A DNA stretch of 64,000 bases from IMG/VR virus record IMGVR_UViG_3300024988_000006. One strand, 5' to 3'. Position 1 is the stretch's first letter. The number at the start of each line of letters is the position of its first letter. Source of the DNA: a virus. Below, piece by piece: positions 5,173-39,072 of the stretch. The notes under the pieces are model-generated. The model ran no database searches. It was not told the origin of the DNA and saw only the letters and a list, made by a program, of their open reading frames with translations. The translations under genes and the position numbers were made by a program.

Positions 5173-5796
5173 TTATAATCCCATCGCACTTTTAACTTCA
5201 TTAAACAATTCGTCAGCGTCTTTTGTTGATAAACCAGTCAGTTGTTTAAACAACTGATGGTTGTTATTAAGGATCGCCTCTCTCATTTTGGATGAGCTTG
5301 CACCCAACACACCACCTAATGCTTCATCTCGTAGTATTGGATTTGCAATATATTTTTCTTGTTGTGAAACATTTTCACCAAATATACGTCCAATATCTTT
5401 CCGGTATGACCGATCACTACCCGTAACTTCCCCAACGGGCAACATCTGTCGTTCTAGCAAGGAAACAAGAGCAACATAAGCATTTGTTGCTAATTCAAAT
5501 CGAATACCAGGAAACATTTTCTGCAAATAATGAATACGACGTTCGCCATCTAATGGGCTAGATTGGGTTCGTTTGCCTGTATCGACAACAAAGACAATAG
5601 GTTGGGCATTTAATTTGCTTGCTAGCATATTTAATTGATCCACTATTTGATGATGTCCAACATGAGGTGGATTAAACTTACCAATAGCAAATACAACAGG
5701 CGCAAATCCCGCTTGATAATATTGATCAATTGACCATGTTTTCATTTCAGGATCAATATTTTCCTGTTCTGCAAGGAAAGTTTTAAAACTAAACAT
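5173..5796 (-). CDS. HxGH-family nucleotidyltransferase (cytidylyltransferase/NMNAT-like fold)
   Basis: GKFNPPHVGH, GSDR and SSSKMR motifs. Start revised to MFSFKTFLAE at 5796 (AGGAG SD). Confidence 0.75.
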   Translation of the reverse strand: MFSFKTFLAEQENIDPEMKTWSIDQYYQAGFAPVVFAIGKFNPPHVGHHQIVDQLNMLASKLNAQPIVFVVDTGKRTQSSPLDGERRIHYLQKMFPGIRFELATNAYVALVSLLERQMLPVGEVTGSDRSYRKDIGRIFGENVSQQEKYIANPILRDEALGGVLGASSSKMREAILNNNHQLFKQLTGLSTKDADELFNEVKSAMGL

Positions 5797-5816
5797 TGTA
5801 ATTCTCCTATTGTATC

Positions 5817-5824
5817 TATTTATA
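5817..5824 (-). promoter_or_regulatory. T4-type late promoter TATAAATA
   Basis: Exact consensus upstream of the minus-strand nucleotidyltransferase/baseplate operon. Confidence 0.7.
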
Positions 5825-5828
5825 AGTG

Positions 5829-5856
5829 TTGACTTGTTGTAAAAACACCGTATAAT
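5829..5856 (+). promoter_or_regulatory. Sigma70-type promoter for gp55
   Basis: TTGACT-16 nt-TATAAT. Confidence 0.7.
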
Positions 5857-5892
5857 TATTAGATATAACAAAAATAATAAAGGAAGTATGTT

Positions 5893-6435
5893 ATGGCCAA
5901 ATCAACAAAAAAGGAAGTTGAAGTAGAAGTACCAATAGTACCTAAAAAGAAAAATTATCTCAACAACAAAGATATGATGATTGAGGTAATCAAAAGCAAA
6001 GAGCAGAAGCAAATGAACGACAAGTTAGCATTAATGCTAACAATGTTGTGTAAAAGGTACGCAAAAAAGGGCAACTTTGCAAATTATTCGTACAATGATG
6101 ATATGCAAGGTTACGCCATGTTAATGTTGGTTAAAACATGGAATTCGTTTGATCCCCAAAAGAGTAATAACCCATTCGCATTCTTTACACAATGCATCAA
6201 AAACTCCTTCATCCAATATCTCAATCACGAAAAGCGACAAAGTAGCGTAAAAAACAAAACCCTTATTGCTGCTGGCATGAACCCTTCTCATAGTTATATG
6301 ACCGAATACGAAAATGCTCAAAGTGAACAGCGCGATCACAATATGGGTGGACACAACACCTTCGATCACCTAACCAACACTGATACGGACCCTGATGTTG
6401 AAGTTGACAAAGAGAATGAAATGATAGATATTTAA
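5893..6435 (+). CDS. gp55: Late-transcription sigma factor
   Basis: NYLNNK...KGNFANYSYNDDM...FDPQKSNNPFAFFTQCIKNSFIQYLNHEKRQ, the T4 gp55 signature. Confidence 0.9.
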   Translation: MAKSTKKEVEVEVPIVPKKKNYLNNKDMMIEVIKSKEQKQMNDKLALMLTMLCKRYAKKGNFANYSYNDDMQGYAMLMLVKTWNSFDPQKSNNPFAFFTQCIKNSFIQYLNHEKRQSSVKNKTLIAAGMNPSHSYMTEYENAQSEQRDHNMGGHNTFDHLTNTDTDPDVEVDKENEMIDI

Positions 6436-6481
6436 TTAAATAAAGTAGTAAAAATAAGAATAATAATAAAGAGGTTTCATT

Positions 6482-7549: not shown

Positions 7550-7562
7550 GGAACAATAAAGA

Positions 7563-10012: not shown

Positions 10013-10468
10013 ATGTCATTACTTAAAGAATTAGCTAAAAACATTCACGAAGCAGATGAGTTTGCTTTCGGCGGAGGCGCCATGAATACTGATCAACCAA
10101 CCACGACGCCAGGTGGACAGGACGAGTTTGGTTCACCAAGCCCAGCAGACGATGTAGATACACCATCGGATGATATGGGTGATGAAAATCCAGAAGACTC
10201 GGTTGCAATGGATGTTCCTTTATTGATTCGTATCATGGAGTGGGCACACGAAGATGCTCAAAGTGATGTTGAGTTGCACAAAGTTACAGAAAATCTTGTT
10301 GCTATGGCGGCCGAAGGTAGAACATTAACCATGGATGATTATGATGCTGCTCTTGAGGGTGTTGGTCAAGATGAAGACGATGATGGTTATGGTGATAAGG
10401 GTTCTATGCCTGATGTTGATAGTGTGCCTACAGACACAGACCCAGGTGCTCCGGACGACACCATGTAA
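10013..10468 (+). CDS. Acidic hypothetical protein, possible internal head protein
   Basis: AGGAG SD; D/E-rich flanks around a folded-looking core MDVPLLIRIMEWAHED...LTMDDYD. Confidence 0.6.
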   Translation: MSLLKELAKNIHEADEFAFGGGAMNTDQPTTTPGGQDEFGSPSPADDVDTPSDDMGDENPEDSVAMDVPLLIRIMEWAHEDAQSDVELHKVTENLVAMAAEGRTLTMDDYDAALEGVGQDEDDDGYGDKGSMPDVDSVPTDTDPGAPDDTM

Positions 10469-10885: not shown

Positions 10886-10915
10886 TATAAATACTCCAAA
10901 TACAATAGGAGTATT
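10886..10915 (+). promoter_or_regulatory. Late promoter TATAAATA overlapping an SD-sequestering hairpin
   Basis: AATACTCC (10890-10897) and GGAGTATT (10908-10915) form a perfect 8-bp stem. Confidence 0.65.
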
Positions 10916-10918: not shown

Positions 10919-11425
10919 ATGTTACTAACCGAAATAACAAAAGTTGTTACAGTAGATTCGTTATTCGAACAGATTCAGCGAGAGTTTATTCGTGATATGT
11001 CAATTCTTTCAGAAGTGACATATAATTCTGACGGCTCAATAGCTTGGGAACCGCCAACGCCTGCTGAAAAGGCACAAGCAAGTAATATTGTGCAGCGTCA
11101 CCAAGCTGGGCCATCATCACAAGAAATTCGTCAAAAACAGTTATTGGACGCAACACCTGTACCGGGTGATTTTGTTTTCTTCCCCGATACCAAAACGTCG
11201 GGAATCATCATGAAATTGGATCAAAACACGGGCGTTGTTGATGTGATGAACAAAGACAGAAAACCAATGGGCTCGTTTAACATCAGAGACATGAAAATGA
11301 CTGGTAGATCAAATACTCCATATAAAACCGTATACGGAATGTTTAGAAACTCCATCGTTAGACCCATTGCTCCCCCCGACACCATGGTTAAACGATTTGT
11401 TGTTGGTGGGGGTGTAAACATCTAA
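10919..11425 (+). CDS. Hypothetical late protein
   Basis: Start revised to MLLTEIT at 10919 (GGAG SD). Confidence 0.55.
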   Translation: MLLTEITKVVTVDSLFEQIQREFIRDMSILSEVTYNSDGSIAWEPPTPAEKAQASNIVQRHQAGPSSQEIRQKQLLDATPVPGDFVFFPDTKTSGIIMKLDQNTGVVDVMNKDRKPMGSFNIRDMKMTGRSNTPYKTVYGMFRNSIVRPIAPPDTMVKRFVVGGGVNI

Positions 11426-12023: not shown

Positions 12024-12779
12024 TTAATCTAACGACAAATCTTCATCACCTATTTTTTTACGATATTTGATTAGTTTTTCGATATACCCATTGTTGCGCA
12101 ATGTTTTAAAGGCGATATTTTCTACAGAAAATTCTCCTCCACTCGCTAGTCCTGCTTTACGCATATTCCAAATCTTATCTGTTACTTTCTGAACAGATTG
12201 TTTATCATCAACCTTATCGTCAATGATTTCATCAATTAACGACATCATTTCTGCAGCTTTAATTTTGGTTGCATACTTATCAATTTTGGCGTTGTCCTTC
12301 TTCATTACAGGCTTTTCTGCCCACTTGTCGTCTTTTATACTAAAAATGCCAGTAGCAACAAGATTTTCATCTGCCAATTGAACATAAACTTCAACTGGAT
12401 ATCCATAAATTGTGATATCATGTTGTTCATTCCACAACGTTTTCTTTGCTTTAAAAAATTCTTCAATTTTAAACTTACAAGGTTTACCTTCTTTGGATGT
12501 TACATTGGCGATTAAATGCAGATCAATATCAGATTGTGGTGTGTAATTGTAGTTTGCTAAACTGCCAGTGAAAATGATATCTTTGATATCCATTTCAGGT
12601 GTTTCTAAGAATTCTTCAAACTCTTTTGCAATTTTTAACAATGCTTTGCGCACTTTAGGGTCCAAGTCCCCATTACGTGACCAAATGTCTGAATTCAATT
12701 CCGTGTGGTATTGAAATTTAATCTCCACTTTATGTGGGGATACTTCATTTAAAAGGTATTCTTTAAAGCCAATCTTCAT
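12024..12779 (-). CDS. Pol-beta-superfamily nucleotidyltransferase
   Basis: FTGSLANYNY...SDIDLHL...PVEVYVQ (GS, DxD and third acidic residue). Start at MKIGFKEYLLNE. Confidence 0.75.
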   Translation of the reverse strand: MKIGFKEYLLNEVSPHKVEIKFQYHTELNSDIWSRNGDLDPKVRKALLKIAKEFEEFLETPEMDIKDIIFTGSLANYNYTPQSDIDLHLIANVTSKEGKPCKFKIEEFFKAKKTLWNEQHDITIYGYPVEVYVQLADENLVATGIFSIKDDKWAEKPVMKKDNAKIDKYATKIKAAEMMSLIDEIIDDKVDDKQSVQKVTDKIWNMRKAGLASGGEFSVENIAFKTLRNNGYIEKLIKYRKKIGDEDLSLD

Positions 12780-12868: not shown

Positions 12869-14458
12869 ATGTCTGACGAAATTCTAAAATATTGGCCCGT
12901 TGAAAGCCCTCCACGCGAAAATCAAGTCAAGGCGTTTGAGTGGTTGGAAAAACAAACAGCCAAATACATATTGCTTCAAGCTCCTGTTGGAGTTGGTAAA
13001 TCCCTCATTGGTTTAACATACTCACGATACCTTAATCAAGGTAAAGGGGATTCCTTTATACTGACCCCCCAAATCATTCTTCAGAAACAATACGAAGATT
13101 CGTGTAGCAGTGATATGTTGGCTTCTTTGTACGGCAAGGGAAATTACAAATGTGCCAATCGCAACACCACATGTGATGTAGGAAGCTTGGTTAAACCAAG
13201 ATGTGACAATTGTCCAGCCGCTGCTGCAAAGTCTCGTGCAAAAATTGCACCAAACGTTGTGCTAAACTACAAACTCGCTATGCTAAGTTTCGTTTATACG
13301 CAAACATTTAGAAAACGTGGTTTAATGATTCTTGATGAATGCCATAACACAGAGAGTGAACTAACCGAAATCGATGCTGTACAAATTTTTGCGAAACGGT
13401 GCGAGCGTTATAACATTCCGTGGAAGGCACACACTGATATCGTATCGGCTATAAATTGGGTTAGCGACAAATATCTTCCGGTTATGGATAAAAAACTGCA
13501 AGCATTAATGGACGAATGTGAAGAATTAATCGATAAAGGTACCAACGGACGTCATGTGTTACCTGCTGAGATTAACAAACTTCGTGAAATGAATGCTCTT
13601 GTTGAGCACATTCAGGGACTTACAGACATTATAACCGAAGGAATGGATTCGCTCCAGAAGAATTGGTGTTTGATTTTTGACAAGAACTCCATCAAGTTTA
13701 AACGATTGTATGGTGCCCACAGCTTTGAGCATATTCTACAACCGATGGCGGATAGATTCTTGTTCATGTCGTCTACCATTCTCAACCCCAAAAGTTTCTG
13801 TAGAGATTTGGGTATTAATCCCGACGAAGCAGCATTCCTATCATTAGAGTCAGATTTCCCTGCAGAAAATCGACCCGTTGTATACATGCCGCAAATGAAA
13901 ATGACTGTCAATTGGAATAGTGATGAAAATGTTGGCAATCGTAAAAATATGATTAACACCATTAAACAACTCATGGAATTGAATAAGGATCATTCAGGTA
14001 TTATTCACACAGGAAACTTCGCGATTGCAAAGTGGTTAACGGAGCAATTAGAAGACCAAATCCCTCATGAGATATTACATCACAATCCTGAAAGTGGAGA
14101 CGACAGGAACCAAATTATCAAAATATTTCAATCAACCAAAAAGCCGGCGTTGTTAATATCCCCAAGCATCACAGAGGGATTGGATTTGATCAATGATTTG
14201 GCACGATTTGCGATCATTGTAAAGATTCCTTACGGATTTTTGGGCGATCAATGGATCAAGCGCCGCATGGAAATATCGTCAGAATGGTACCAGCGACAAG
14301 CTATTGTTGATATTATTCAAGGAGCAGGCCGAGTTGTACGGTCAAAGGATGATTGGGGTCATGTATACATCCTAGATAGTTCGTGGGGATATCTGTATAC
14401 TCAAACAAAAGGAATTATTCCTGATTGGTGGCACGACGGATATCATGTAGTTAAATAA
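12869..14458 (+). CDS. DinG/XPD-like SF2 helicase
   Basis: APVGVGKS, GKGNYKC..C..C..CP (possible Fe-S ligands), LDECH, SSTI, TEGLDL, QGAGRVVRSKDD. Confidence 0.85.
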   Translation: MSDEILKYWPVESPPRENQVKAFEWLEKQTAKYILLQAPVGVGKSLIGLTYSRYLNQGKGDSFILTPQIILQKQYEDSCSSDMLASLYGKGNYKCANRNTTCDVGSLVKPRCDNCPAAAAKSRAKIAPNVVLNYKLAMLSFVYTQTFRKRGLMILDECHNTESELTEIDAVQIFAKRCERYNIPWKAHTDIVSAINWVSDKYLPVMDKKLQALMDECEELIDKGTNGRHVLPAEINKLREMNALVEHIQGLTDIITEGMDSLQKNWCLIFDKNSIKFKRLYGAHSFEHILQPMADRFLFMSSTILNPKSFCRDLGINPDEAAFLSLESDFPAENRPVVYMPQMKMTVNWNSDENVGNRKNMINTIKQLMELNKDHSGIIHTGNFAIAKWLTEQLEDQIPHEILHHNPESGDDRNQIIKIFQSTKKPALLISPSITEGLDLINDLARFAIIVKIPYGFLGDQWIKRRMEISSEWYQRQAIVDIIQGAGRVVRSKDDWGHVYILDSSWGYLYTQTKGIIPDWWHDGYHVVK

Positions 14459-14482
14459 AAAAGGCCCATGATGGGCCTTTTT
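14457..14482. terminator. Bidirectional intrinsic terminator between convergent genes
   Basis: AAAAAAGGCCCATGATGGGCCTTTTT. Confidence 0.8.
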
Positions 14483-14711
14483 AATATACAGGATGTGGAT
14501 TTTTTGATTCTACCTTAAATCGTTTGTCCAGAAACTCTGAAATCATTTGTCGTTCAGCATACGACATATTCATCATTTCGGTGTAAGACACCGCGCCGCG
14601 CATAAAGTATATTAACGACAAGACCGACTCCATAATGGCCTCGACTTCGTTGTTTAAACTTTTAAATAACTTCCTCACAGCATCGCGGTCACCACTCCTA
14701 ATTACCGTGTA
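14481..14711 (-). CDS. gp51-like baseplate hub/tail assembly protein, possibly made as a -1 frameshift extension of the upstream gene
   Basis: MRGAVSYTEMMNMSYAERQMISEFL resembles short gp51-type ORFs. The frame is open through the U8 run; an alternative own start is ATG ~14633 after GAGG. Confidence 0.6.
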   Translation of the reverse strand, partial: YTVIRSGDRDAVRKLFKSLNNEVEAIMESVLSLIYFMRGAVSYTEMMNMSYAERQMISEFLDKRFKVESKNPHPVY

Positions 14712-15508
14712 AAAAAAACTAGTGGGTTTAACGGAACACTGATTTCGACCTCCTGCCCACAATCTTGACACGTTGTTTTAAATTCTGTTGTTGGACCCCA
14801 ATCACTACTTTTATCCACCGCTTCTTTGATTTGATCAAACCACATTGTTTGGATGGTTGTTGCCCACTCCATAATAAAATCTTTATCTGTAACTTCATCA
14901 ACCGAAGCGATGACACTCACAACTGTTTTAAACAGCTCCCGCTGAATTTGTTCAGCGGAATGATCATCCATGCTCATACTACTAACTTGCATCATGCTCA
15001 TAATATTGTCAAACTTTACGGGGTGTAACTTGACAACTTGTCCGTTTGGTAGCGTTACGGTGTAAAGACTGTTTATGGTTGTTGGGTCAATCTGTTTGGC
15101 TGAATTAATAAATTTGGTCAACGTCGTGGTATATTCATGACTTTTTGAATCTTTACAACCATGATCAAAAGTCACCGTAATAGTATCACCATAAGTAACT
15201 TTACGCAAACACAACATTAGATAATCAACATCTTTTGCAAACAATTGCCCAGGTTTGATAACTTGAGGCATACACTTTACAAAAACTTCCGTAATTGCCT
15301 TACCATTAATGATTTTATCAGGGCTTTTCATGACAATTTCATCTAGGGCTGTTAAGGGATTTACCTGAACTTCACCACCGGTAACTGAAGAATCAAGTTC
15401 ACCATCTTTGTAAAACAAACCGCCCGATGGCAACCTAAAGGTTTCCCCAGGAATAACAACACGTTCCAGCAAGGGATTAACAGGACGTGGCATATCTGTA
15501 TTATTCAT
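14702..15508 (-). CDS. gp26: gp26-like baseplate hub assembly protein
   Basis: RLPSGG, DVDYLMLCLRKVTYGD, two Cys/His pairs (HGC..H; CQDCG). Start revised to 15508 (GGAG SD). Confidence 0.7.
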   Translation of the reverse strand: MNNTDMPRPVNPLLERVVIPGETFRLPSGGLFYKDGELDSSVTGGEVQVNPLTALDEIVMKSPDKIINGKAITEVFVKCMPQVIKPGQLFAKDVDYLMLCLRKVTYGDTITVTFDHGCKDSKSHEYTTTLTKFINSAKQIDPTTINSLYTVTLPNGQVVKLHPVKFDNIMSMMQVSSMSMDDHSAEQIQRELFKTVVSVIASVDEVTDKDFIMEWATTIQTMWFDQIKEAVDKSSDWGPTTEFKTTCQDCGQEVEISVPLNPLVFFTR

Positions 15509-20108: not shown

Positions 20109-20375
20109 ATGAAAGAAAAATTAAAGAGCATGCTTAATGCAATGATTAACGACAATGCAGAACAAGCACAAGTTGATTTTCACGAATTTGTGACCGCTAA
20201 GATGCGTGCCGTCCTTGGTGAAGAAGCAGAAAAGGATGAAAAAGAAGAAAAGTCCGACAAGGAAGAAAAGGACGAAAAGAAAGAAGACAAAGAAGAAAAG
20301 GACGAAAAGAAAGAAGAAAAGTCTGAAGAAGATGATGAAGATGAAGATGAAGAAGACAAGGAAGACAAGGAGTAA
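20109..20375 (+). CDS. Small acidic prohead core protein (gp67-like)
   Basis: Between portal and protease; E/D/K-rich low-complexity C-terminus. Confidence 0.6.
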   Translation: MKEKLKSMLNAMINDNAEQAQVDFHEFVTAKMRAVLGEEAEKDEKEEKSDKEEKDEKKEDKEEKDEKKEEKSEEDDEDEDEEDKEDKE

Positions 20376-20398: not shown

Positions 20399-21034
20399 AT
20401 GAGTCCAGAATTACTAATTGAAGAGCTCTCCCCTGCTCAAAGTCATCTCATCGAAGAAGCATCAACTGACGGGAAAAATGTTTGGCTTAATGGTGTATTC
20501 ATGCAAGCTGACATTAAAAACCGAAACAATCGTGTATATCCACTTGATGAGATTGCTCGTGCAGTCACAGAAGCTCAACTACGCATCAAAGAATCTAATG
20601 GTATCTTTGGTGAGCTTGATCATCCCCAAACACTGAACATCAACCTTGATCGTATCTCGCATGCCATTACTGATTTGCGTATGGAAGGATCAAATGCTGT
20701 TGGTCGTGCAAAACTTTTACCAACTCCAATGGGTAACATTGCTCGCGCATTAGTCGAGAGTGGTGTTCGTCTTGGTGTTAGTTCTCGCGGTGCTGGTACA
20801 GTGAACGAAAGTGGTAATGTTAATGGTTTCAACTTTGTTACTGTTGATATTGTTGCTACACCTTCTGCCCCTGGTGCAATGCCAAATTCGGTTTATGAGT
20901 CGCTAGAAATGGTTAAAAGTGGGCGCAAAGTCCTTACACTAGCAGAACAGATGAAGGAAGATCCTGACGCTCAGATGTATTTCAAGCGTGAAATTGAGAA
21001 GTTTTTGCGCGAAAATTTGTTTGCGAAAAAGTAA
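20399..21034 (+). CDS. gp21: Prohead protease
   Basis: NRNNRVYP, GELDHP, GVSSRGAG, DIVATPSAPGA. Confidence 0.95.
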   Translation: MSPELLIEELSPAQSHLIEEASTDGKNVWLNGVFMQADIKNRNNRVYPLDEIARAVTEAQLRIKESNGIFGELDHPQTLNINLDRISHAITDLRMEGSNAVGRAKLLPTPMGNIARALVESGVRLGVSSRGAGTVNESGNVNGFNFVTVDIVATPSAPGAMPNSVYESLEMVKSGRKVLTLAEQMKEDPDAQMYFKREIEKFLRENLFAKK

Positions 21035-21171: not shown

Positions 21172-22119
21172 ATGGAAGAACTTTTAAAGAAGCTACTCGA
21201 AGCTGAAATTCTTTCTGAAGATTCCAAAAAGGAATTAGAAGAAGCATTTAGTGCTCAAATGACTGAGGCTGTTGAAGCAGCTAAAAAGGAAGCTACTGAC
21301 ACAGTTCGTGCTGAACTTACTGAACAGTGGATTACTGAGAGAGATGCACTCATCGAAGCCATCGACACTAAAGTTAATGAGTTCTTGAGTGAAGAAATGA
21401 CAGAATTAAGAGGCGACATCTCGTCTTTCCGTGATTTGGAAGCTGAATATGCTGCTAAGTTAGTCGAAGCTAAAGAAGAGATGGGTGAAGAACTCAAGAC
21501 CGATTTGGCTGAGTTAGTTGAAAAACTTGATGCTTTCTTGGAAATCCGCCTTGGCGCCGAAATGGAAGAATTGAGAGAAGACATCGCTGAAGTTAAAAAA
21601 CTTGAGTTTGGTCGCAAAGTGTTTGAGTCTTTTGTTCGTGAATATCGTAAGAATTTCATTAGTGAAGACTCCATTGAAGCCGAACTTCGTGAATCGAAGG
21701 AACAGATCAGGACTCTTCAAGCTAAGTATGAAAATACAGAAGCTGCTAAAGAAGAAATGCGTCGTACCATCAAGATGGAATCGGTTCTCAAGCCACTTTC
21801 GGGCAAGCACCGTGACGTTATGGAGACACTTCTCAATAGTGTTGGTACTGATCAGCTTGAAGAAGGATACAAAACCTTTATTGGTCGCATATTTAAAGAT
21901 AGTACAGAAGTAGTAGAAGAAAAGAAGGACGAGTCAGAGAAGGAAAGTAAAGTACTTGCTGAAGGATCTGAAATTTCTCAAAAAGTAGAAGAGGGTGCCG
22001 TTGTTGTTAAGACAGGTGACACCACCCCAGTAGAAGAAGTTAAGGAAGAAGAAGAGATCGAAGTCAAGGCTTCGCCACTCACAGAATCCATGAGACGTCT
22101 CGCTGGATTAATTAATTAA
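21172..22119 (+). CDS. gp22: Prohead scaffolding/core protein
   Basis: Acidic coiled coil between protease and capsid; many L/I-X-E sites. Confidence 0.8.
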   Translation: MEELLKKLLEAEILSEDSKKELEEAFSAQMTEAVEAAKKEATDTVRAELTEQWITERDALIEAIDTKVNEFLSEEMTELRGDISSFRDLEAEYAAKLVEAKEEMGEELKTDLAELVEKLDAFLEIRLGAEMEELREDIAEVKKLEFGRKVFESFVREYRKNFISEDSIEAELRESKEQIRTLQAKYENTEAAKEEMRRTIKMESVLKPLSGKHRDVMETLLNSVGTDQLEEGYKTFIGRIFKDSTEVVEEKKDESEKESKVLAEGSEISQKVEEGAVVVKTGDTTPVEEVKEEEEIEVKASPLTESMRRLAGLIN

Positions 22120-22168: not shown

Positions 22169-23533
22169 ATGAATGAACTTTTTGAAAATTGGGCAGAGAT
22201 TAAGGGTGCTTTACTCGAAGGTCTTGATGCCAACAAGCGTAAGATTGTTGATCCTCTTTTAGAGAATCAAAAAAATCAGGTCTTATCTGAAACAGCAGCA
22301 GTTGGCTCCACCGATGCTCACGCAATCGCTGGTTTCCGTAAGATTTTAATCCCAATGATCCGTCGTATTATTCCTTCGACGATCGCAACCGAAATCGTTG
22401 GTGTTCAGCCAATGACAGGTCCTGTTGGTCTTGTGTATTCGTTACGCTACAAGTATAACGAAAACATGACTACTGCTGTTTCTCCAGAAGGTGATGTTCC
22501 AAACGCTGGCGATCCAAATGACTTTGAAGCTTTCGGTAACTTGAATGCTATGCGCCGTTTCTACTCTGGTGCTACTGATGCTGCTCAAGCTGCTGGTGCT
22601 GGTGGTATGGGTGCTCCTGCTCCTGGTGGTATCGCTGGTACTGCACAAGGTACAGCATGGCCTTCTAGCCTTGATGCTGCGTTCGTTGGTCCTTTTGGTG
22701 CCGCTGGTCCATTACATGGTGGTTCTGGTTCGTATCTTGAAGGTTCTGGTGGTCGTAAGATGGGTGTCGAAATCGTTTCGCAAGCTGTTGAATCTGGTAG
22801 CCGCAAGTTGCAAGCTGGTTGGACAATCGAAGCCATGCAGGATCTTCAGGCTCAGCATGGTCTTGACCTTGAAAATGAAATGACCCAAGCCCTTTCGGCT
22901 GAAATCGTTCAGGAAATCGACAACGAAATTATCACTGACCTTCTTGGTCTTGCTGGTACTGTTGCTGCTTTCGACGGTTCGCTTCCAGGTGCTCCAGGTT
23001 ACTACCGCCCAACCTTCGTTGGTGATCGTTTAGCTAACCTTGGCGTTATGATCAACTACGTCGCTAATGAAATCGGTCGTAAGACACGTCGCGGTGTTGG
23101 TAACTTCATCGTTGTTAGCCCAATGATCGTTTCTGTTCTTCAGTCGGCTAATAAGAGCGTGTTTGCTCCTGCAACTCAGGGCTCCTTCAAGGGTCCTAAC
23201 AACACAATGTTAGTTGGTACTTTAAACGGTACAATCAAGGTTTACAGCTACTTGTGGAACCAAGTTCAGGCTACTAACGTTGGTGGAACCGGTAACGATT
23301 CTATCCTTGTTGGTTACAAAGGCGGTAATGGTGAAACGGACAGCGGTTACTTCTACTGCCCATACATCCCATTGATGTCTTCTGGTGTTGTTATCAACCC
23401 AGTCACCTTCCAACCAGTCGTTTCCTTGATGACTCGTTATGGTAAAGCTACTTTCACCCAGAAGGAAACTTCTCTTGGTAACAGTGCTGACTACTACGGT
23501 AAGGTGAACGTTTCCGCAATGAGCCTTGCTTAA
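22169..23533 (+). CDS. gp23: Major capsid protein
   Basis: IATEIVGVQPMTGPVGLVYSLRY, SRKLQAGWTIEAMQDL, FYCPYIPL, TRYG. Confidence 0.96.
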   Translation: MNELFENWAEIKGALLEGLDANKRKIVDPLLENQKNQVLSETAAVGSTDAHAIAGFRKILIPMIRRIIPSTIATEIVGVQPMTGPVGLVYSLRYKYNENMTTAVSPEGDVPNAGDPNDFEAFGNLNAMRRFYSGATDAAQAAGAGGMGAPAPGGIAGTAQGTAWPSSLDAAFVGPFGAAGPLHGGSGSYLEGSGGRKMGVEIVSQAVESGSRKLQAGWTIEAMQDLQAQHGLDLENEMTQALSAEIVQEIDNEIITDLLGLAGTVAAFDGSLPGAPGYYRPTFVGDRLANLGVMINYVANEIGRKTRRGVGNFIVVSPMIVSVLQSANKSVFAPATQGSFKGPNNTMLVGTLNGTIKVYSYLWNQVQATNVGGTGNDSILVGYKGGNGETDSGYFYCPYIPLMSSGVVINPVTFQPVVSLMTRYGKATFTQKETSLGNSADYYGKVNVSAMSLA

Positions 23534-23682: not shown

Positions 23683-24012
23683 ATGAAAAAATTATCTTTC
23701 AAAGAATATTTGGAATCAAAAAATCAATTGCTTCAAGCAATTGAAGAATCCCCTATTCAAACAATATCATACGATGTCACATCGTATTGCAAACTCATTG
23801 TGGGTGAGCGGGAAGACAAACAACATATTTCGCTTAAACCAAAACAAACAATCGTCATAGAGTGGGAATATGCCGACATTAATACTACTCCCGATCCCAT
23901 ATCAATTCGCTTCGAAAATGTAAAAGAAGTAGACTCGCTTGAAGAATATACTACTTACTGGTCGGGCGACAAACTAAAAAAATGGCTCGGTAAAAACGCA
24001 ACCGAATTGTAA
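23683..24012 (+). CDS. Hypothetical late protein
   Basis: CATAAATA upstream at 23646; N-terminus MKKLSFKEYLE. Confidence 0.6.
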   Translation: MKKLSFKEYLESKNQLLQAIEESPIQTISYDVTSYCKLIVGEREDKQHISLKPKQTIVIEWEYADINTTPDPISIRFENVKEVDSLEEYTTYWSGDKLKKWLGKNATEL

Positions 24013-32471: not shown

Positions 32472-33854
32472 ATGTCACTACAAGACCTGTTTACAACCGC
32501 CTCTACTGGTGCCCAAAGCACTATCAGTAAGTCCGTCGAGAGACAGACTTATGGCATTGTTAATCGTGGCGTTAACACCGTTGCCGGTGTATTCAACAAC
32601 TCTGTACAGTCAGGGCTTTCACGTTTTCTTTCTAAAGGAAGTCAACAAATACTAGATGCAGTTGGTATTTCTCGTAACTCACTACCAGAGCTGGGCAATA
32701 TTAGTGCAGCTATTACATCGGCTGGAGTGACAGCGGCAGGTCAAATATTTCAAGGTATTGTAAATGGTAATGTCACACAAAAGAGTGTAAATCAATTATC
32801 ATCATATGATGTAGCCAAAGCGGCTGCGGCAAACAACAACACAACCGCACAACACATGTTTGCGATTAGCAATTTAGTACAGATTGCACAAACTCAAGGT
32901 GTAACCGATTCCTTGGGTTCCATTGGACAAGCGCCAGGAATACCCGATGCTGTTGTTAAACATTACGCATCCGATTTACTACAATATGCCCCAAAATATA
33001 AATTTTTATATGTTGTTGAGTTTATATTTAATGCTTCATATGCAAATACAACATTTAAGAACGATTTTGCCTTTTTAATTAAGCAGTTCGACCGTCCTAA
33101 CATTAACATTGTACATGATGATGTTAATATGTATGGGTACCGTACCAAAGTCCCAAAAATGACATCTTACGAACCAATAACGGTTCAAATACACGACGAT
33201 ATTCAAAACCGTTCTATGAATTTTTTCGTATCTTACTTACGTTCTATAAGTCCAATCGCAAATGCTCGTGGTTCTTCTGATCCAACTTCATTGCAAGCGG
33301 ATAGTATGCAATACGATATGTCAGGTTCATATGGTGATACCCCAACTAATAATCATTCATCTTCTTTTGGGCCACTCTACGATAATGCCGTTACAGTTTT
33401 ACAATCAATGAATCTATATCATGTGTATGATTATGGCCAGTTTATGAACGTTTACAACTTTAAAAATCCTAAAATTATTCAAATGTCTTTAGATGCTCTT
33501 TCTATGGAGGAGAGTGGTGGTTCTGGTGTAACTTTACAACTAGCTTATGATACAGTGTATATCGAAACTGGGGTCGCAGCGGCTGGTAACATCAACCAAA
33601 AAGAAATTTATGATGGTATACAACTTACAGACACTTTATCAGGGGTCGAATCATCCAACATTCAACAAATTAGTGATAGTATAACACATACACTACCATC
33701 AGATACCAATTTAACACCAAATACTTCTGTGTCCCCAACTGCTTCGAATCTATTTGTGGGTACATCAAACACTGCTATAACAGGCGTTACAGATTTAACC
33801 ATACCTACCAACGAATTGGCAAATGTTGTTAACTCCTTTACTCCAAAATTCTAA
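32472..33854 (+). CDS. Tube-fold baseplate protein (gp54-like tube initiator)
   Basis: DRPNINIV..VNMYGYRTKVPKMTSYEPITVQIHDD; late promoter TATAAATA at 32441. Confidence 0.6.
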   Translation: MSLQDLFTTASTGAQSTISKSVERQTYGIVNRGVNTVAGVFNNSVQSGLSRFLSKGSQQILDAVGISRNSLPELGNISAAITSAGVTAAGQIFQGIVNGNVTQKSVNQLSSYDVAKAAAANNNTTAQHMFAISNLVQIAQTQGVTDSLGSIGQAPGIPDAVVKHYASDLLQYAPKYKFLYVVEFIFNASYANTTFKNDFAFLIKQFDRPNINIVHDDVNMYGYRTKVPKMTSYEPITVQIHDDIQNRSMNFFVSYLRSISPIANARGSSDPTSLQADSMQYDMSGSYGDTPTNNHSSSFGPLYDNAVTVLQSMNLYHVYDYGQFMNVYNFKNPKIIQMSLDALSMEESGGSGVTLQLAYDTVYIETGVAAAGNINQKEIYDGIQLTDTLSGVESSNIQQISDSITHTLPSDTNLTPNTSVSPTASNLFVGTSNTAITGVTDLTIPTNELANVVNSFTPKF

Positions 33855-34294
33855 TGGGAAATTTTAGACAAGGGTATTTTGTACCCAAACATCCTGAAAA
33901 ATATAAGGGTAATGTATCAAACATTCGTTACATGTCATCTTGGGAATTAAAATTCAACCATTTCCTTGATAACAATGCAAATATTCTTGAATGGGCTAGT
34001 GAGGAAATCGCTATACCATATATCAAACCCACCGATGGGAAGCTTCATAAATACTACCCAGACTACTATATCATGTATAAAAACAAAGATGGTGCAATTA
34101 TACGTGAGGTAATTGAGATTAAACCAAAAAGTCAGGTTAATCTCAAAAAACGAGCAAATTTGTATGAACAATTGACGTTTGCTGTGAATAAAGCTAAATG
34201 GGAAGCTGCTGAACGATTCTGTCAACAATATGGTTTAAAATTTAGAATTGTAACAGAAGATCACCTATTTGCTAATGGGAGAACAAAAAAATGA
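33854..34294 (+). CDS. gp4: Head completion nuclease (TnsA-like)
   Basis: QGYFVPKHPEKYKG, YMSSWE, WASEEIAIPY, YYPDY, EIKP, NKAKWEAA. Confidence 0.9.
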   Translation: MGNFRQGYFVPKHPEKYKGNVSNIRYMSSWELKFNHFLDNNANILEWASEEIAIPYIKPTDGKLHKYYPDYYIMYKNKDGAIIREVIEIKPKSQVNLKKRANLYEQLTFAVNKAKWEAAERFCQQYGLKFRIVTEDHLFANGRTKK

Positions 34295-34713
34295 AAATAG
34301 TAACCACCGAAGAATATATTGAACATCCAATGGAAGAAATCTTTGATATTGAATCTGGTTCAACTCTTATCACGAAAGAAGAATTGCAATCAGACGGTCT
34401 TGTTACTTTACACAGTTACGACGATAAGGATTTGGAAGTTGAAAGTCAGTTTCAAGAAGTTTACGATGCTGCAATGACATCATTTGCTGACCAAGCAGGT
34501 TTATTGCATACAAGCGATCCAAAATACAGTGCTCGTAATATGGAAGTTGCAAACGCCTTTCTCAATACCGCGTTAGCGGCAGCTAAAGAGAAAGCTAATA
34601 TCAAACAGCATAAAGATAAAATTGCTAAGGGTGAAGGTCCTCGAACCGTCAACAACAACTTGATAATGGATCGCAACGTGTTGTTAAAAATGCTAAAGGA
34701 TGGTGGCCAATGA
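34291..34713 (+). CDS. gp16: Terminase small subunit
   Basis: ARNMEVANAFL...TVNNNLIMDRNVLLKML resembles the T4 gp16 C-terminus; lies upstream of TerL. Confidence 0.65.
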   Translation: MKIVTTEEYIEHPMEEIFDIESGSTLITKEELQSDGLVTLHSYDDKDLEVESQFQEVYDAAMTSFADQAGLLHTSDPKYSARNMEVANAFLNTALAAAKEKANIKQHKDKIAKGEGPRTVNNNLIMDRNVLLKMLKDGGQ

Positions 34714-35510
34714 AACTAACAGAGTTACTCTCTGAAAGAGAAAATTTGGGTGGTTATGACTATGAAAAAATGGTCTATTTAGCACTACGTCAATCAGGAA
34801 TAAGTGGTAAGATTAAAACACATGCGCGCAAAGCTGCAAGTGATGCTCACAAACCCGATTTGGATTTTGTTATTAACGGTAACCAACACCTACTAGAAGT
34901 TAAACAGGGTAGTAGAGCACAAATGGGTGGTACATCGTTTCGATATAATCCAAGAGCAAGACGTTTAGACACAATGTTTGTCCCAGTAAATGATATTTTT
35001 GATCCTGATGATTTAACTATTATTCAGGAAATTATGTCATCAAAACAAGACGATCTTAACCAATATTTGCAATTTATTATCAACGATCCAATTACCAAAC
35101 AATACAATTTACCAATTACAGGATGGCCATTTGTTGCTGCACGTCAGACATTAGATGCCGCTCGTGATCAAGGCTTGTTGCGTAACATCAACACAACCAT
35201 TCGTTATGATACATCCTTTATTCATAAACATTATGCAAGTAAGGGAATATTTTATATCCAGATTGGTGGTAGCGGACTGTTTTATATGGCCGATAATCCT
35301 GCAGGGTTACCAGTTCCACAACTTAAAGGCGAGATTGATTTAGAGGTTCGTTCAGGCCCTGCAGGTGGTAGAGAACTCGCAAACGGTTTGGTTGTTGCAG
35401 GGAATTCCTTACGTATCCAAGGAAGGTGGCAATATCACGGCAAATCTATCTACACACTAGACAATCCAAACAACATTACCAAACTACTCACGCGGATTGG
35501 TGCCTCTTAA
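34710..35510 (+). CDS. PD-(D/E)xK-family nuclease-like protein
   Basis: KPDLDF....LLEVK motif; ATGA overlap with TerS. Confidence 0.55.
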   Translation: MKLTELLSERENLGGYDYEKMVYLALRQSGISGKIKTHARKAASDAHKPDLDFVINGNQHLLEVKQGSRAQMGGTSFRYNPRARRLDTMFVPVNDIFDPDDLTIIQEIMSSKQDDLNQYLQFIINDPITKQYNLPITGWPFVAARQTLDAARDQGLLRNINTTIRYDTSFIHKHYASKGIFYIQIGGSGLFYMADNPAGLPVPQLKGEIDLEVRSGPAGGRELANGLVVAGNSLRIQGRWQYHGKSIYTLDNPNNITKLLTRIGAS

Positions 35511-35527: not shown

Positions 35528-35591
35528 TTTTTCACTATTATAGTGGAGATTATTATGTATTTTGTTTATCAGTTAATATTTGGAGTGCACA

Positions 35592-37196: not shown

Positions 37197-37303
37197 GTTT
37201 GACCCAAACGACAGTTTAATAATAGAACATCATTATAATAATTAAAGAACCTTTATGCTCAGGCCTTTGTGACAAAACCATTATCTCTAGGGTAATAAAA
37301 AAA

Positions 37304-37340
37304 GTCAACGGGTTGACAAAAATAAATTTTCCTTTATAAT
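37304..37340 (+). promoter_or_regulatory. Sigma70 promoter with a GTCAAC/GTTGAC palindrome over the -35
   Basis: GTCAAC-GG-GTTGACA; TTGACA (37313)-16 nt-TATAAT. Confidence 0.75.
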
Positions 37341-37368
37341 GACACAATATTATTAAATTGGATAAAAC

Positions 37369-38496
37369 ATGAATCTCAAAGACGAATTTTTTAAGTGGTT
37401 TCACAGTAACTTTGTATTTACCCCGCTTTATAGCGCGATGAACAATACCTCCGAAGCAAGTAAATGGCATCGTGAAGATAGTGTCGGCGTGCATACCGCT
37501 ATGGTTGTTGCAGAATACATAAAGTTTTCGCCAAATGAGTGGAACACTGACGATTTGTGTGGTGCAATTGCCTGCGCATTCCATGATACTGGCAAACCGG
37601 CGGCGCGCACCGAAAAGCACTCAGAAGAGCGTGGTGTTTACTACTCCTATCCTGGCCATGAGCAAATTTCGGCCCGTTTGTGGGAAGATTGGGCTGTTAG
37701 CAACTGGATTACGTTTGAGAAGTTTGGGCTTGTCCCCAACGACATCTACCGTATTGGTTGGGTGATTGAACATCATCTGCCGTACGCCACTGTCAAGGCA
37801 GACAAGGTTGGCCGCATGGTGGAAACGGTTGTTAATATGTTTGGATCTAACCGAATTATGAGCACTGTGTTGTTGGCAGACCAATTTGGTCGTATTTCTG
37901 ATGATATGGAGTACAACCGCAATAAGGTTGTTGTGTGGGTTGATGAATTTAATAAGAAGTGTGACGAATTCATGGCTACCAATTCAACAAACGACGTTGG
38001 GAAGAAACCTACCTGCACACTGCTTATTGGACCATCTGGATGTGGTAAGTCTACTTATACCGAAGTATATCAAGCACTTTATGGGCCTGTGCAACACTAC
38101 TCGTGGGATGATTTGCGTATGCAATGGTATTCGCCTAAGACGGGTGATGTTAAACATGACTATTCAGCAGCGTGGGCAGCATCTACAGAAGATAAGCAAT
38201 TTCAACAAAAGGCTGATGCAGCATTCAACTCTATGTTAAGTGGTGAAGATGTGTTTGTTGATAACACCAACCTTACTACTAAACGTCGCCGCTTCTTTGT
38301 GGAAGCTGCCCACCGTAAAGGTTATAATGTTATTGGTGTGTTGTTTCCGCTTGCTCTTAGCACTCTCAAAGAACGCCAAATGGGGCGTGATGATAAACAA
38401 GTGCCGATGGCAACTGTTGAAAGTATGTATTTTTCGTTGCAGTTGCCATCTAATGGCGAAGTTGATAACGTTGTTGTGTCGGAAGGTAACCTGTAA
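37369..38496 (+). CDS. HD-Pnk: HD phosphohydrolase fused to a P-loop polynucleotide kinase
   Basis: WHREDSVGVHT...FHDTGK...HEQIS...HH...D; GPSGCGKST, DDLR, VDNTN, RQMGR. Confidence 0.8.
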   Translation: MNLKDEFFKWFHSNFVFTPLYSAMNNTSEASKWHREDSVGVHTAMVVAEYIKFSPNEWNTDDLCGAIACAFHDTGKPAARTEKHSEERGVYYSYPGHEQISARLWEDWAVSNWITFEKFGLVPNDIYRIGWVIEHHLPYATVKADKVGRMVETVVNMFGSNRIMSTVLLADQFGRISDDMEYNRNKVVVWVDEFNKKCDEFMATNSTNDVGKKPTCTLLIGPSGCGKSTYTEVYQALYGPVQHYSWDDLRMQWYSPKTGDVKHDYSAAWAASTEDKQFQQKADAAFNSMLSGEDVFVDNTNLTTKRRRFFVEAAHRKGYNVIGVLFPLALSTLKERQMGRDDKQVPMATVESMYFSLQLPSNGEVDNVVVSEGNL

Positions 38497-38503
38497 TATT
38501 TTT

Positions 38504-38536
38504 CTTCCCATAAATACTTACAATATTTATGGGAAG
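38504..38536 (+). promoter_or_regulatory. Perfect 13-bp hairpin containing late promoter CATAAATA and the SD
   Basis: CTTCCCATAAATA-CTTACAA-TATTTATGGGAAG; ATG at 38542. Confidence 0.7.
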
Positions 38537-38541
38537 TTTTT

Positions 38542-39072
38542 ATGGCAAAATCACTAAAACAATTATACGAAGACTCGGTTAACGACCTTCAAACAAGCAC
38601 GATTGCAGGATTTCCTGATACCAAAAAACGTCAAAACGTTACTGGTACTGTAGCTGTTAATAACATCAAATTCATCCCATACGAAGACTCTCGCTCATTA
38701 GAAGCACATGCTGACGTCACGAGTGCTGGTCATCGTTACCAAACAGCTATGCTTTTTAGAGAAGTTCAATACGAACCAAATGATTCACCTGATGTTGTAT
38801 CATTTACGGGTACGGACAGCACAGAACACCATATTTACGCTGTGTCAGCTGTGCTAAATGATGTCCAGGTACGCTGTACTTGTTTGGATTTTTATTTCAG
38901 ATTTGCTAACCAAGATTATCAAAATGATAGTTTGCTTGGTGCAGCTCCCCCACCCTATCGTCGCAAAACAACCACGAGACCGCCAGTGAACCCAACTAAT
39001 GCGGTTGGGATGTGCAAACATTTAATTAAGTTTGCGGATAAACTAAAAGATATGCAAATTATGGTCGATTAA
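38542..39072 (+). CDS. SWIM zinc-finger protein
   Basis: VRCTCLDF...GMCKHL (CxC...CxH). Confidence 0.7.
   Translation: MAKSLKQLYEDSVNDLQTSTIAGFPDTKKRQNVTGTVAVNNIKFIPYEDSRSLEAHADVTSAGHRYQTAMLFREVQYEPNDSPDVVSFTGTDSTEHHIYAVSAVLNDVQVRCTCLDFYFRFANQDYQNDSLLGAAPPPYRRKTTTRPPVNPTNAVGMCKHLIKFADKLKDMQIMVD

What the first reader, a model, noticed from the sequence alone, without database searches (positions are those of the whole stretch)
5173..39072. Late proteins, several of them enzymes, with capsid-targeting-like N-termini: a candidate injected cargo set
Seen: seven unrelated ORFs start with a similar short amphipathic leader containing a Glu site: MFSFKTFLAE (5796-), MKIGFKEYLLNE (12779-), MKKLSFKEYLE (23683), MKLTELLSE (34710), MLLTE (10919), MAKSLKQLYE (38542) and MSLLKELAKNIHE (10013). 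Six end in L/I-X-E; 23683 fits only loosely. All have a TATAAATA-like promoter upstream or sit in a late operon. Known: T4 internal proteins use a leader like MKTYQEFIAE to enter the prohead, and gp21 cleaves at L/I-X-E. Inference: this phage may package two nucleotidyltransferases, a PD-(D/E)xK nuclease and a SWIM protein and deliver them with the DNA, for example as early counter-defence.
Basis: partly seen in the sequence, partly recalled or inferred. Interest (0 to 1): 0.8.

Follow-up and report, generated by a model that had tools for sequence, protein, structure and literature searches.

The report
T4-type capsid-loading tags, jumbo phage
Three late proteins of this XacN1-like jumbo phage, two of them nucleotidyltransferases, begin with a short tag very like the one phage T4 uses to load proteins into its head and then cut off. 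They are probably packaged and injected with the DNA, which extends a known T4 mechanism rather than revealing a new one.

Summary
All seven N-termini are present as quoted, but they fall into two classes.

**Strong class (5796-, 12779-, 23683+).** These three share a specific motif, [S/G/T]-F-K-x-[F/Y]-L.
- In six-frame translation of the window the motif occurs only at these three N-termini.
- In about 2 Mb of related phage DNA it is concentrated at N-termini (58 of 254 hits; N-terminal slots are 1.4% of positions). It sits on unrelated proteins behind late-promoter-like sites.
- MFSFKTFLAE (5796-) matches T4's MKTYQEFIAE at all four residues known to matter: 4, 7, 8 and 10.

**Machinery.** The phage encodes an intact gp21-type protease. 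Its capsid propeptide and scaffold carry the L/I-x-E sites.

**Homologue evidence.** Homologues of both nucleotidyltransferases were detected by mass spectrometry in virions of the T4-like cyanophage S-CREM2. The cyanophage cytidylyltransferases carry the same kind of 10-residue tag.

**Weak class (10013, 10919, 34710, 38542).** The loose L/I-x-E rule alone is near chance (12 of 65 genes, against about 6 in control windows). Orthologues of 34710, 38542 and 10013 do keep an N-terminal L-x-E. 10919 is an orphan and cannot be tested.

**Verdict.** This is a new member of a known kind. The scan has already noted similar tags on other phage DNA. There are no direct virion or cleavage data for this phage.

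The parts
5173..5796 (-). Cytidylyltransferase/NMNAT-like enzyme (207 aa). It has a canonical 10-residue CTS-type leader, MFSFKTFLAE (codons at 5767-5796), and an HxGH motif (PHVGH).
   Evidence: phrog_3041 cytidyltransferase, E 2e-24. Pfam CTP_transf_like and FAD_syn score below their cut-offs. Homologous to cyanophage 'cytidyltransferase' genes, including virion protein S-CREM2 gp154.
5817..5824 (-). Exact TATAAATA late-promoter motif, 28 nt upstream of ATG 5796.
12024..12779 (-). Pol-beta-superfamily nucleotidyltransferase (251 aa, phrog_36119) with a 12-residue leader, MKIGFKEYLLNE (codons 12744-12779). GATAAATA lies about 28 nt upstream.
   Evidence: PF01909 at 28.6 bits, cut-off 21. 1868 homologues. 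In the AF2 model the leader is a separate helix, residues 5-12, at pLDDT about 62. The S-CREM2 homologue gp156 is in the virion proteome.
23683..24012 (+). Conserved 109-aa core protein downstream of the capsid gene. Its N-terminal helix carries MKKLSFKEYLE. It is CTS-like but probably not cleaved at that Glu.
   Evidence: Orthologues are present in about 50 related loci. F6 is invariant; K7 and Y9 are nearly so. The residue after YL is E, D, N, A or Q. AF2 pLDDT 88.9, with no solved-fold match.
20399..21034 (+). gp21-type prohead serine protease. His75 and Ser128 are present, and LIE sits at residues 6-8.
   Evidence: PF03420, E 2.2e-24. Alignment to T4 gp21, PDB 5jbl.
21172..22119 (+). Scaffold (gp22-like) with 17 [LI]xE sites in 315 aa.
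   Evidence: Position between protease and capsid gene. phrog_10922.
22169..23533 (+). Major capsid protein (Gp23 family). The propeptide spans 22169-22291. All four [LI]xE sites lie in residues 1-41 (the last is LSE41|T42), and none lies in the mature 413 aa.
   Evidence: PF07068, E 4e-94; residue 44 aligns to residue 15 of mature T4 gp23*.
20109..20375 (+). Small, very acidic protein between portal and protease. It is a likely prohead-core component (gp67/68-like by position and composition only).
   Evidence: no family match.
5893..6435 (+). Small sigma factor (gp55-like), divergent from 5796-.
   Evidence: PF04542 at 24.1 bits. The syntenic XacN1 ORF303 is annotated as late transcription sigma factor.
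34710..35510 (+). PD-(D/E)xK-type protein (266 aa) in a late operon. It has an N-terminal extension, MKLTELLSE, found only in the jumbo-phage members of its family. Candidate cargo, moderate support.
   Evidence: D50, E63 and K65 are invariant. The extension is present in 3 of 18 aligned homologues and ends in L-x-E in all three.
38542..39072 (+). Core CxC...CxH (SWIM-like) protein. An L-x-E near the N-terminus is conserved in four genomes after lead-ins of different length. Candidate protease substrate, weak support.
   Evidence: No Pfam hit.
10013..10468 (+). Acidic 151-aa protein. The N-terminal MSLLKEL...[LI]xE is kept in orthologues. It has a widespread central 60-aa domain. Weak candidate.
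10919..11425 (+). Orphan 168-aa late protein starting MLLTE, with an exact TATAAATA 33 nt upstream (10886-10893). Untestable candidate.

Best explanation
The window is part of a roughly 346-kb XacN1-like jumbo myovirus that builds its head with the T4 machinery.

**Proposed mechanism.** A short N-terminal amphipathic leader works like the T4 capsid targeting sequence (CTS). The leader has aromatic residues three apart, then L/I-x-E.
- It docks late-made proteins onto the scaffolding core as the prohead forms.
- The gp21-type protease then cuts after the Glu.
- The mature protein stays in the head and leaves with the DNA.

**Which proteins.**
- In this window the mechanism most likely applies to the NMNAT-like cytidylyltransferase (5796-, cut after E10) and the Pol-beta nucleotidyltransferase (12779-, cut after E12).
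- The conserved 109-aa protein 23683+ uses the same docking helix but is probably not cut there. It would be a resident internal head or core protein.
- 34710 (PD-ExK), 38542 (SWIM-like) and 10013 may be further protease substrates.
- 10919 is undecided.

**Shown.** The motif, its confinement to N-termini, its portability between unrelated proteins, its association with late promoters, the protease and its sites, and virion detection of homologues in another phage.

**Inferred.** Docking, cleavage, ejection, and any role in the newly infected cell. One example would be NAD+ or nucleotide chemistry against host defence.
For: 1. **Machinery.**
- Peptidase_S77, Gp23 and the T4 portal are present, with catalytic His75 and Ser128 aligned to T4 gp21.
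- The capsid protein has [LI]xE only in residues 1-41, and the XacN1 capsid shows the same pattern. The scaffold has 17 such sites.
- The predicted cut lies within about 12 residues of the T4 gp23 cut.

2. **Motif specificity.**
- In the window, 3 of 3 six-frame hits are at N-termini.
- In 4.07 M six-frame residues of the window plus relatives, 58 of 254 hits of [FYW][KRQ][ETDQS][FYW]L lie within 8 codons of an ORF-initial ATG. Such slots are 1.4% of positions (binomial 4e-51, though the hits are not independent). 24 of the 58 fall outside the SK-type consensus of the 23683 family; about three of those 24 still look like divergent orthologues.
- Complete relative G004 has at least 7 small ORFs starting xTF[RK]x[FY]L[IL]E. 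XacN1 has at least 4.

3. **Portability.** The mature parts of 18 leader-bearing proteins share no BLASTP similarity, and none of 10 tested has a Pfam domain.

4. **Selection acts on the protein.** All six Leu codons and both Phe, Lys and Tyr codons are used.

5. **Late expression.** 37 of 49 distinct instances have NATAAATA 10-65 nt upstream, against 8-26% of ORFs of 100 aa or more.

6. **Match to T4.**
- The CTS is MKTYQEFIAE (PMC8442874). Targeting depends on residues 4 and 7, and processing on residues 8 and 10 (PMC9026906).
- 5796- has F4, F7, L8 and E10.
- Cyanophage homologues read MKNFSSFLTE (S-CREM2 gp154) and MKKFSAFLKE (P-SSM4_155).
- The Rak2-like homologue, which sits in an early region, has no leader.

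7. **Nucleotidyltransferase family.** 65 of 81 homologues have [LI]xE in the 7-29-aa segment before the conserved core. Shuffling gives 20 +/- 3.6. The leaders are of several types.

8. **Virion mass spectrometry of S-CREM2** found gp154, gp155 and gp156 (PMC10665884 Table 3). gp156 is the homologue of 12779 and gp154 the homologue of 5796. NMNAT-like proteins are also reported in three other cyanomyovirus virion proteomes.
Against: - There is no virion proteome, N-terminal mapping or expression data for this phage or a close relative. The XacN1 list of virion proteins is only in a figure and could not be read.
- The S-CREM2 authors themselves warn that abundant non-structural proteins may co-purify with virions.
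- 5796- and 12779- have no homologue in XacN1, G004 or G005.
- Their mature parts still contain 1 and 2 internal [LI]xE sites, so they are not depleted.
- The 12779 leader is 12 residues long, with its aromatic residues one position further from the Glu than in T4.
- In cyanophages and Cr30 the nucleotidyltransferase gene sits among non-structural genes.
- The Glu of 23683 is not conserved.
- The enrichment statistics count orthologues more than once.
Confidence: 0.6

Rival explanations
1. The enzymes act in the cytoplasm late in infection, in NAD+ or nucleotide metabolism. Their virion signal in cyanophages is carry-over. The N-terminal helix is an ordinary structural or solubility element with no sorting role.
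For: The S-CREM2 authors raise contamination as a possibility. The nucleotidyltransferase and cytidylyltransferase sit in metabolic or replication neighbourhoods in S-CRM01, Cr30 and contig L149. Internal [LI]xE sites are not depleted.
Against: - The same short motif heads many unrelated small proteins and is confined to N-termini.
- It lies outside the conserved enzyme core and is absent from the early-region Rak2-like homologue.
- It matches the four functional CTS positions.
- [LI]xE is threefold enriched in the variable pre-core segment.
Confidence: 0.15
2. The shared N-terminus is a recognition tag for some other partner, not for the prohead core. The partner could be a modifying enzyme, a chaperonin (the phage encodes GroES-like proteins) or a late-stage degradation or activation system.
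For: An earlier scan note (e1-127136) describes a shared phage leader that turned out to be linked to a radical-SAM enzyme rather than to the capsid. The 23683 family keeps the motif but not the cleavage Glu.
Against: No partner enzyme was seen next to the tagged genes in the window, XacN1 or G004, although no systematic linkage test was run. The motif ends in the protease's own site in nearly all non-core carriers. Homologues are detected in virions.
Confidence: 0.1
3. Chance. The seven N-termini merely share the K/E/L-rich composition of a 40% GC phage, and L/I-x-E is a frequent tripeptide.
For: 12 of 65 genes meet the loose rule, against about 6 of 60 control windows. Three of those hits are in replication-region genes. 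10919 is an orphan, and neither it nor 34710 has a homologue in three complete relatives.
Against: Chance cannot explain the F-K-x-[FY]-L class. For 34710, 38542 and 10013 the L-x-E is conserved in orthologues while the flanking residues vary.
Confidence: 0.1

Closest known systems
Phage T4 capsid targeting sequence (CTS) of internal proteins IPII/IPIII (MKTYQEFIAE), IPI and Alt, removed by prohead protease gp21
   Same: An N-terminal tag of about 10 residues on otherwise unrelated late proteins, with an aromatic at position 4, Phe at 7, I/L at 8 and Glu at 10. The same phage encodes a gp21-family protease with L/I-x-E sites in its capsid propeptide and scaffold. The cargo can be an enzyme, as with Alt.
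   Different: - The host phage is a roughly 346-kb XacN1-like jumbo phage only 44-46% identical to Rak2-like capsid proteins.
- The consensus is xTFKx[FY]L[IL]E rather than KTYQEFIAE.
- The cargo here is two nucleotidyltransferases rather than small basic proteins.
- One carrier (the 23683 family) is a conserved core gene that probably keeps its tag.
- Nothing has been shown experimentally.
Virion-associated cytidylyltransferase/NMNAT-like proteins of T4-like cyanophages (S-CREM2 gp154; S-CBWM1, S-SZBM1, S-SCSM1)
   Same: 5796- is a homologue. The cyanophage proteins carry the same 10-residue tag. The gene lies beside the late sigma factor gene in both S-CREM2 and this window.
   Different: About 25-30% identity. 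The cyanophage papers report detection in virions, and I found no paper linking these proteins to a CTS. Here there is only sequence.
Propeptide-bearing ejection and inner-body proteins of phiKZ-like and SPN3US giant phages
   Same: Many head-internal proteins are processed by a gp21-related protease and delivered into the cell (PMC5694885 and PMC7411985, abstracts seen).
   Different: From my own knowledge, those proteases cut at S/A/G-x-E and remove long propeptides. Here the sites are L/I-x-E and the tags are about 10 residues, as in T4.

Membership tests
T4-type CTS-tagged packaged proteins | N-terminal leader of about 10 residues with the T4 functional pattern: aromatic at 4, Phe/aromatic at 7, I/L at 8, Glu at 10 | tested here: met
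   5796-, MFSFKTFLAE, matches all four positions (PMC9026906). 12779- matches with a shift of one to two residues (12-residue leader). 23683+ keeps the aromatic pair but has Tyr at P3 and a non-conserved Glu. 10013, 10919, 34710 and 38542 have only L/I-x-E.
T4-type CTS-tagged packaged proteins | The phage encodes a gp21-family (S77) prohead protease with intact catalytic residues | tested here: met
   PF03420, E 2.2e-24. His75 and Ser128 align to the catalytic positions of T4 gp21.
T4-type CTS-tagged packaged proteins | Protease specificity is L/I-x-Glu | tested here: inconclusive
   The evidence is indirect only. All 4 capsid [LI]xE sites are in the first 41 residues, with 0 in the mature part against about 2.5 expected. 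There are 17 sites in the scaffold and an LIE near the protease N-terminus. No cleavage data exist.
T4-type CTS-tagged packaged proteins | The same tag sits on unrelated proteins (portable module) | tested here: met
   18 carriers have no pairwise similarity beyond the tag. Carriers are found in the window, XacN1, G004 and many IMG/VR loci.
T4-type CTS-tagged packaged proteins | Late expression | tested here: met
   Promoter motif only. 37 of 49 instances have NATAAATA upstream, against a background of 8-26%. Exact TATAAATA lies upstream of 5796 and 10919. No transcript data.
T4-type CTS-tagged packaged proteins | Protein present in the mature head with the tag removed, and ejected on infection | not testable with these tools
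   The only evidence is by homology: S-CREM2 gp154 and gp156 in the virion proteome. N-termini were not mapped there.
Pol-beta nucleotidyltransferase (PF01909 NTP_transf_2) | Pfam score above the gathering cut-off, and a GS...DxD catalytic core | tested here: met
   28.6 bits against a cut-off of 21. G72, S73, D84 and D86 are invariant in 57 homologues. Fold matches to solved nucleotidyltransferases are weak only.
Cytidylyltransferase-like / NMNAT (PF01467) | Pfam gathering score, and the HxGH motif | tested here: inconclusive
   Pfam gives 18.2 bits, below the cut-off of 21. However, phrog_3041 'cytidyltransferase' matches at E 2e-24, the PHVGH motif is present, and tblastn finds annotated cyanophage cytidyltransferases.
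PD-(D/E)xK nuclease (34710) | Conserved D...(D/E)xK catalytic triad | tested here: met
   D50, E63 and K65 are invariant in 18 homologues. No Pfam family was found, and the fold was not predicted.
SWIM zinc finger (38542) | CxCxnCxH signature recognised by the family profile | tested here: inconclusive
   The CTC...CKH pattern is visible and conserved in XacN1. There is no Pfam hit at E <= 0.01.

The most novel reading that the evidence does not exclude
A capsid-loading code readable from sequence may be shared across the whole T4-core supergroup: Kyanoviridae, XacN1-like jumbo phages and other uncultured lineages. Under it, a Pol-beta nucleotidyltransferase (phrog_36119) and an NMNAT-like cytidylyltransferase would form a recurrent pair of pre-made enzymes injected together. 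The two genes are adjacent in S-CRM01 and S-CREM2 and both are tagged here. They would act at the moment of DNA entry, for example by restoring NAD+ or altering nucleotide signals before any phage gene is expressed.
Probability: 0.3. Interest if true: 0.7.

Novelty: new member of a known kind. Interest (0 to 1): 0.45.

Why it matters
If the tag works as in T4, the injected protein set of these uncultured jumbo phages and of T4-like cyanophages could be predicted from sequence alone. The first molecules a host meets would then include two nucleotidyltransferases of unknown substrate. That would give concrete candidates for immediate-early counter-defence. It would also explain why 'metabolic' cytidylyltransferases keep turning up in cyanophage virion proteomes. 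It does not change the known principle, since T4 research already proposed the CTS as a general way for T4-like phages to load varied proteins.

Tried and rejected
- Megablast of 20 kb against named phages found nothing. No whole genome is held for the window.
- The search for related loci with single proteins failed for 12779 and 5796, because it needs exact 8-mers.
- Pfam on ten leader-bearing proteins of XacN1 and G004 gave no domain.
- Depletion of [LI]xE in the mature parts of candidate cargo had no power, with expectations of only 1-3 sites.
- Fold searches gave only generic nucleotidyltransferase and helical-bundle matches for the 12779 model, and nothing for the 23683 model. Neither substrate nor fold family could be assigned.
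- The XacN1 supplement holds no list of virion proteins. The S-CRM01 paper is not held.
- 57889-58287 carries an FRSWLE motif. I rejected it as a leader because it lies behind a basic N-terminus, the Glu is not conserved, and the gene sits in the replication region.
- I rejected an RNA-level explanation for the motif, such as a downstream box, because synonymous codons vary freely.


Full report
**What the window is**

The capsid protein at 22169-23533 is 62-68% identical to those of Xanthomonas phage XacN1, Xoo-sp13, Stenotrophomonas CM1/RAS14 and Ralstonia RsoM2USA. It is about 45% identical to those of Rak2-like jumbo phages. No nucleotide-level relative exists among named phages. The window's own proteins lie on a 346-kb contig in the protein collection.

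The region holds a T4-type morphogenesis set:
- portal PF07230 at 18293-19987
- protease PF03420 at 20399-21034
- scaffold at 21172-22119
- capsid protein PF07068 at 22169-23533
- gp15-like tail sheath stabiliser, sheath and T4-type large terminase
- a small sigma factor with sigma-70 region 2 at 5893-6435, next to Mre11/Rad50-like genes

Exact TATAAATA occurs 12 times. Ten of those lie in intergenic DNA, 27-92 nt upstream of a gene start.

**Checking the observation**

All seven N-termini are present as quoted. They are heterogeneous.

The pentapeptide class F[KR][ETDQ][YFW][LIM] occurs three times in the six-frame translation of the 64 kb. All three are 3-5 residues behind the initiator Met of 5796-, 12779- and 23683+.

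The broad rule used to unite all seven is L/I-x-E ending at residue 5-13.
- It is met by 12 of 65 genes. Internal control windows give 4-8 of about 60.
- The 12 include the protease, scaffold and capsid protein.
- They also include three genes outside the late head module, two of them in the replication region.
- So on sequence alone, 10013, 10919, 34710 and 38542 are not distinguishable from chance.

**Is the strong motif a real, portable N-terminal module?**

I fetched 80 related IMG/VR loci around the capsid gene. I also fetched three complete relatives: XacN1, a 363-kb contig called G004 and a 350-kb contig called G005.

- In 4.07 million six-frame residues, [FYW][KRQ][ETDQS][FYW]L has 254 hits. 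58 of them lie within 8 codons of an ORF-initial ATG, and such positions are 1.4% of the total (binomial 4e-51). Orthologues inflate this count.
- 24 of the 58 hits fall outside the SK-type consensus of the 23683 family, although about three of those still look like divergent orthologues.
- G004 alone has at least seven small ORFs beginning xTF[RK]x[FY]L[IL]E.
- XacN1 has MRFTSYLIE (244 aa), MKTSFRQFLAE (275 aa, contains HExxH, encoded in the terminal repeat), MRFVQYLIE (351 aa) and MKQVRLSQFLSE (215 aa).
- The mature parts of 18 carriers show no pairwise BLASTP similarity. Ten carriers tested have no Pfam domain.
- The motif uses all six Leu codons and both Phe, Lys and Tyr codons, so selection acts on the peptide and not on the RNA.
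- 37 of 49 distinct instances have NATAAATA 10-65 nt upstream. Among ORFs of 100 aa or more the figure is 8-26%.

**The protease and its sites**

The protease aligns to T4 gp21 (PDB 5jbl). His75 and Ser128 fall at the two positions that are Ala in that inactive construct. These correspond to the H85/S140 pair named in PMC12991175.

The capsid protein has [LI]xE at residues 4, 15, 30 and 39 and none in the remaining 413 residues. XacN1 shows the same pattern. Residue 44 aligns to residue 15 of mature T4 gp23*, so LSE41|T42 or LLE32|N33 lies close to the T4 cut. The scaffold has 17 such sites, and the protease itself starts with an LIE like T4 gp21 (PMC9026906).

The specificity is therefore inferred to be T4-like. 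It has not been shown.

**Comparison with the T4 CTS**

The T4 CTS is MKTYQEFIAE (PMC8442874). Mutational work summarised in PMC9026906 places targeting at residues 4 and 7 and processing at residues 8 and 10. Asp at position 10 blocks cleavage but not targeting.

- 5796- reads MFSFKTFLAE, with F4, F7, L8 and E10. This is a full match in a 10-residue leader.
- Many orthologues of 12779 read xxTFKQFLIE, which has the same register counted from the Glu. The window's own copy, MKIGFKEYLLNE, has one extra residue.
- The 23683 family keeps F6, K7 and Y9, but the residue after YL is E, D, N, A or Q. Its AF2 model (pLDDT 88.9) has the motif at the start of a helix spanning residues 6-21, packed on a small beta domain.

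I therefore read 23683 as a conserved resident protein that uses the docking surface but is probably not cut there.

**Independent support from homologues**

*12779 (PF01909, phrog_36119).*
- It has 1868 homologues. The conserved core starts at a YH..LN..W motif.
- The 7-29 residues before the core differ by lineage: xTFKQ[YF]L[IL]xE, MLLxE, MKL[TF]E, MIISE and others.
- Despite that variation, 65 of 81 homologues contain [LI]xE in this segment. Shuffling gives 20 +/- 3.6. Control tripeptides give 5-24.
- The AF2 model (pLDDT 85.6) shows the leader as a detached helix of lower confidence.
- The family occurs in T4-like cyanophages, Cr30, Lak and other huge phages, and Maribacter phages.

*5796.*
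- It belongs to the cyanophage 'cytidyltransferase' family.
- S-CREM2 gp154 starts MKNFSSFLTE, P-SSM4_155 starts MKKFSAFLKE and S-CRM01 g127 starts MKLFNQFFKEAE.
- The homologue in Rak2-like phage Muenster sits in an early region and starts directly at the catalytic core.

*Virion evidence.*
- The S-CREM2 virion proteome lists ORF154 (cytidylyltransferase), ORF155 and ORF156 (PMC10665884 Table 3). ORF156 spans 126012-126725, which is the tblastn match of 12779.
- The same paper notes NMNAT-like proteins in three other cyanomyovirus virion proteomes. It also cautions that co-purification is possible.
- I found no paper that links these proteins to a CTS.

**The other four candidates**

- **34710.** D50, E63 and K65 are invariant (PD-ExK). 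Fifteen of 18 aligned homologues start right at the core. Only the three jumbo-phage members carry an 8-9-residue extension: MKLTELLSE, MLLKDILSE and MLLDDLFE. Each ends in L-x-E. This pattern fits an acquired leader. However, the gene is absent from XacN1, G004 and G005, and it lies next to a TnsA-like endonuclease gene. A mobile nuclease is therefore an alternative reading.
- **38542.** This is a core gene. Four orthologues keep L-[YHFL]-E after lead-ins of about 7 to 20 residues.
- **10013.** Orthologues keep MSLLKEL...[LI]xE followed by (D/E)FxFGG. The central 60-residue domain occurs in about 1800 proteins of many architectures.
- **10919.** It has only one near-identical relative. MLLxE is a recurrent leader type in the nucleotidyltransferase family, which is suggestive and no more.

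**Verdict**

The finding is a real T4-type capsid-targeting/propeptide system in a jumbo-phage lineage where it has not been described. Two enzymes are the likely cargo.

The principle is established for T4, and reviews already propose it as a general device of T4-like phages (PMC9026906). Earlier notes of this scan report comparable leaders on other uncultured phages. I did not treat those notes as evidence. Packaging, cleavage, ejection and function in this phage all remain to be shown.

Noticed in passing
window 33854-34294: A 146-aa protein with a TnsA-like endonuclease N-terminal domain (PF08722, E 4e-22). It sits two genes upstream of the PD-ExK protein 34710 and just before the large terminase. 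That makes two nuclease-like genes inside a late structural operon.
   Followed up: no
window 10178-10372 (residues 56-120 of 10013-10468): A roughly 60-residue helical domain (…MDVPLLIRIMEWAHEDA…) matches 1798 representative proteins of 80-900 aa at varied positions. It has no family name and looks like a widespread mobile phage domain of unknown function.
   Followed up: partly
L020:12722-13549 (XacN1 372722-373549, duplicated at 53927-54754): A 275-aa protein in the XacN1 terminal repeat starts MKTSFRQFLAE and contains an HExxH motif. It is a possible packaged metallopeptidase. No Pfam hit.
   Followed up: partly
window 5173-6435; L106:52-1469 (S-CREM2): The tagged cytidylyltransferase gene lies directly beside the late sigma factor gene in both this jumbo phage (divergent) and cyanophage S-CREM2 (tandem). 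In S-CRM01 and S-CREM2 the cytidylyltransferase and the nucleotidyltransferase are separated by a single gene.
   Followed up: no
L115 (G004 about 79630-79700, minus strand): The ORF just upstream of the leader-bearing gene 79297-79626 ends in …TFREFLLNEAALKD-stop. This leader-like peptide sits at a C-terminus and may be a remnant of cassette exchange by recombination between leader sequences.
   Followed up: no
L149:2891-3424 and 14208-14822: In an unrelated 87-kb phage contig that carries an MLLRE-type nucleotidyltransferase homologue, two other genes start with CTS-like peptides (…KECKQFLTE and MKFFNEMLLIE).
   Followed up: no
P0073-P0120 (nucleotidyltransferase homologues): The 16 nucleotidyltransferase homologues without an N-terminal [LI]xE mostly start M-R-x-[KQ]-D-[LF]. 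The Asp in place of Glu suggests a lineage with another protease specificity, or tags that are not cut.
   Followed up: no
window 57889-58287: A core protein conserved in XacN1, G004 and G005, with a basic N-terminus followed by an (E/D)F[RQ]xWL motif. It resembles the leader core but is not N-terminal and lacks a conserved Glu.
   Followed up: partly
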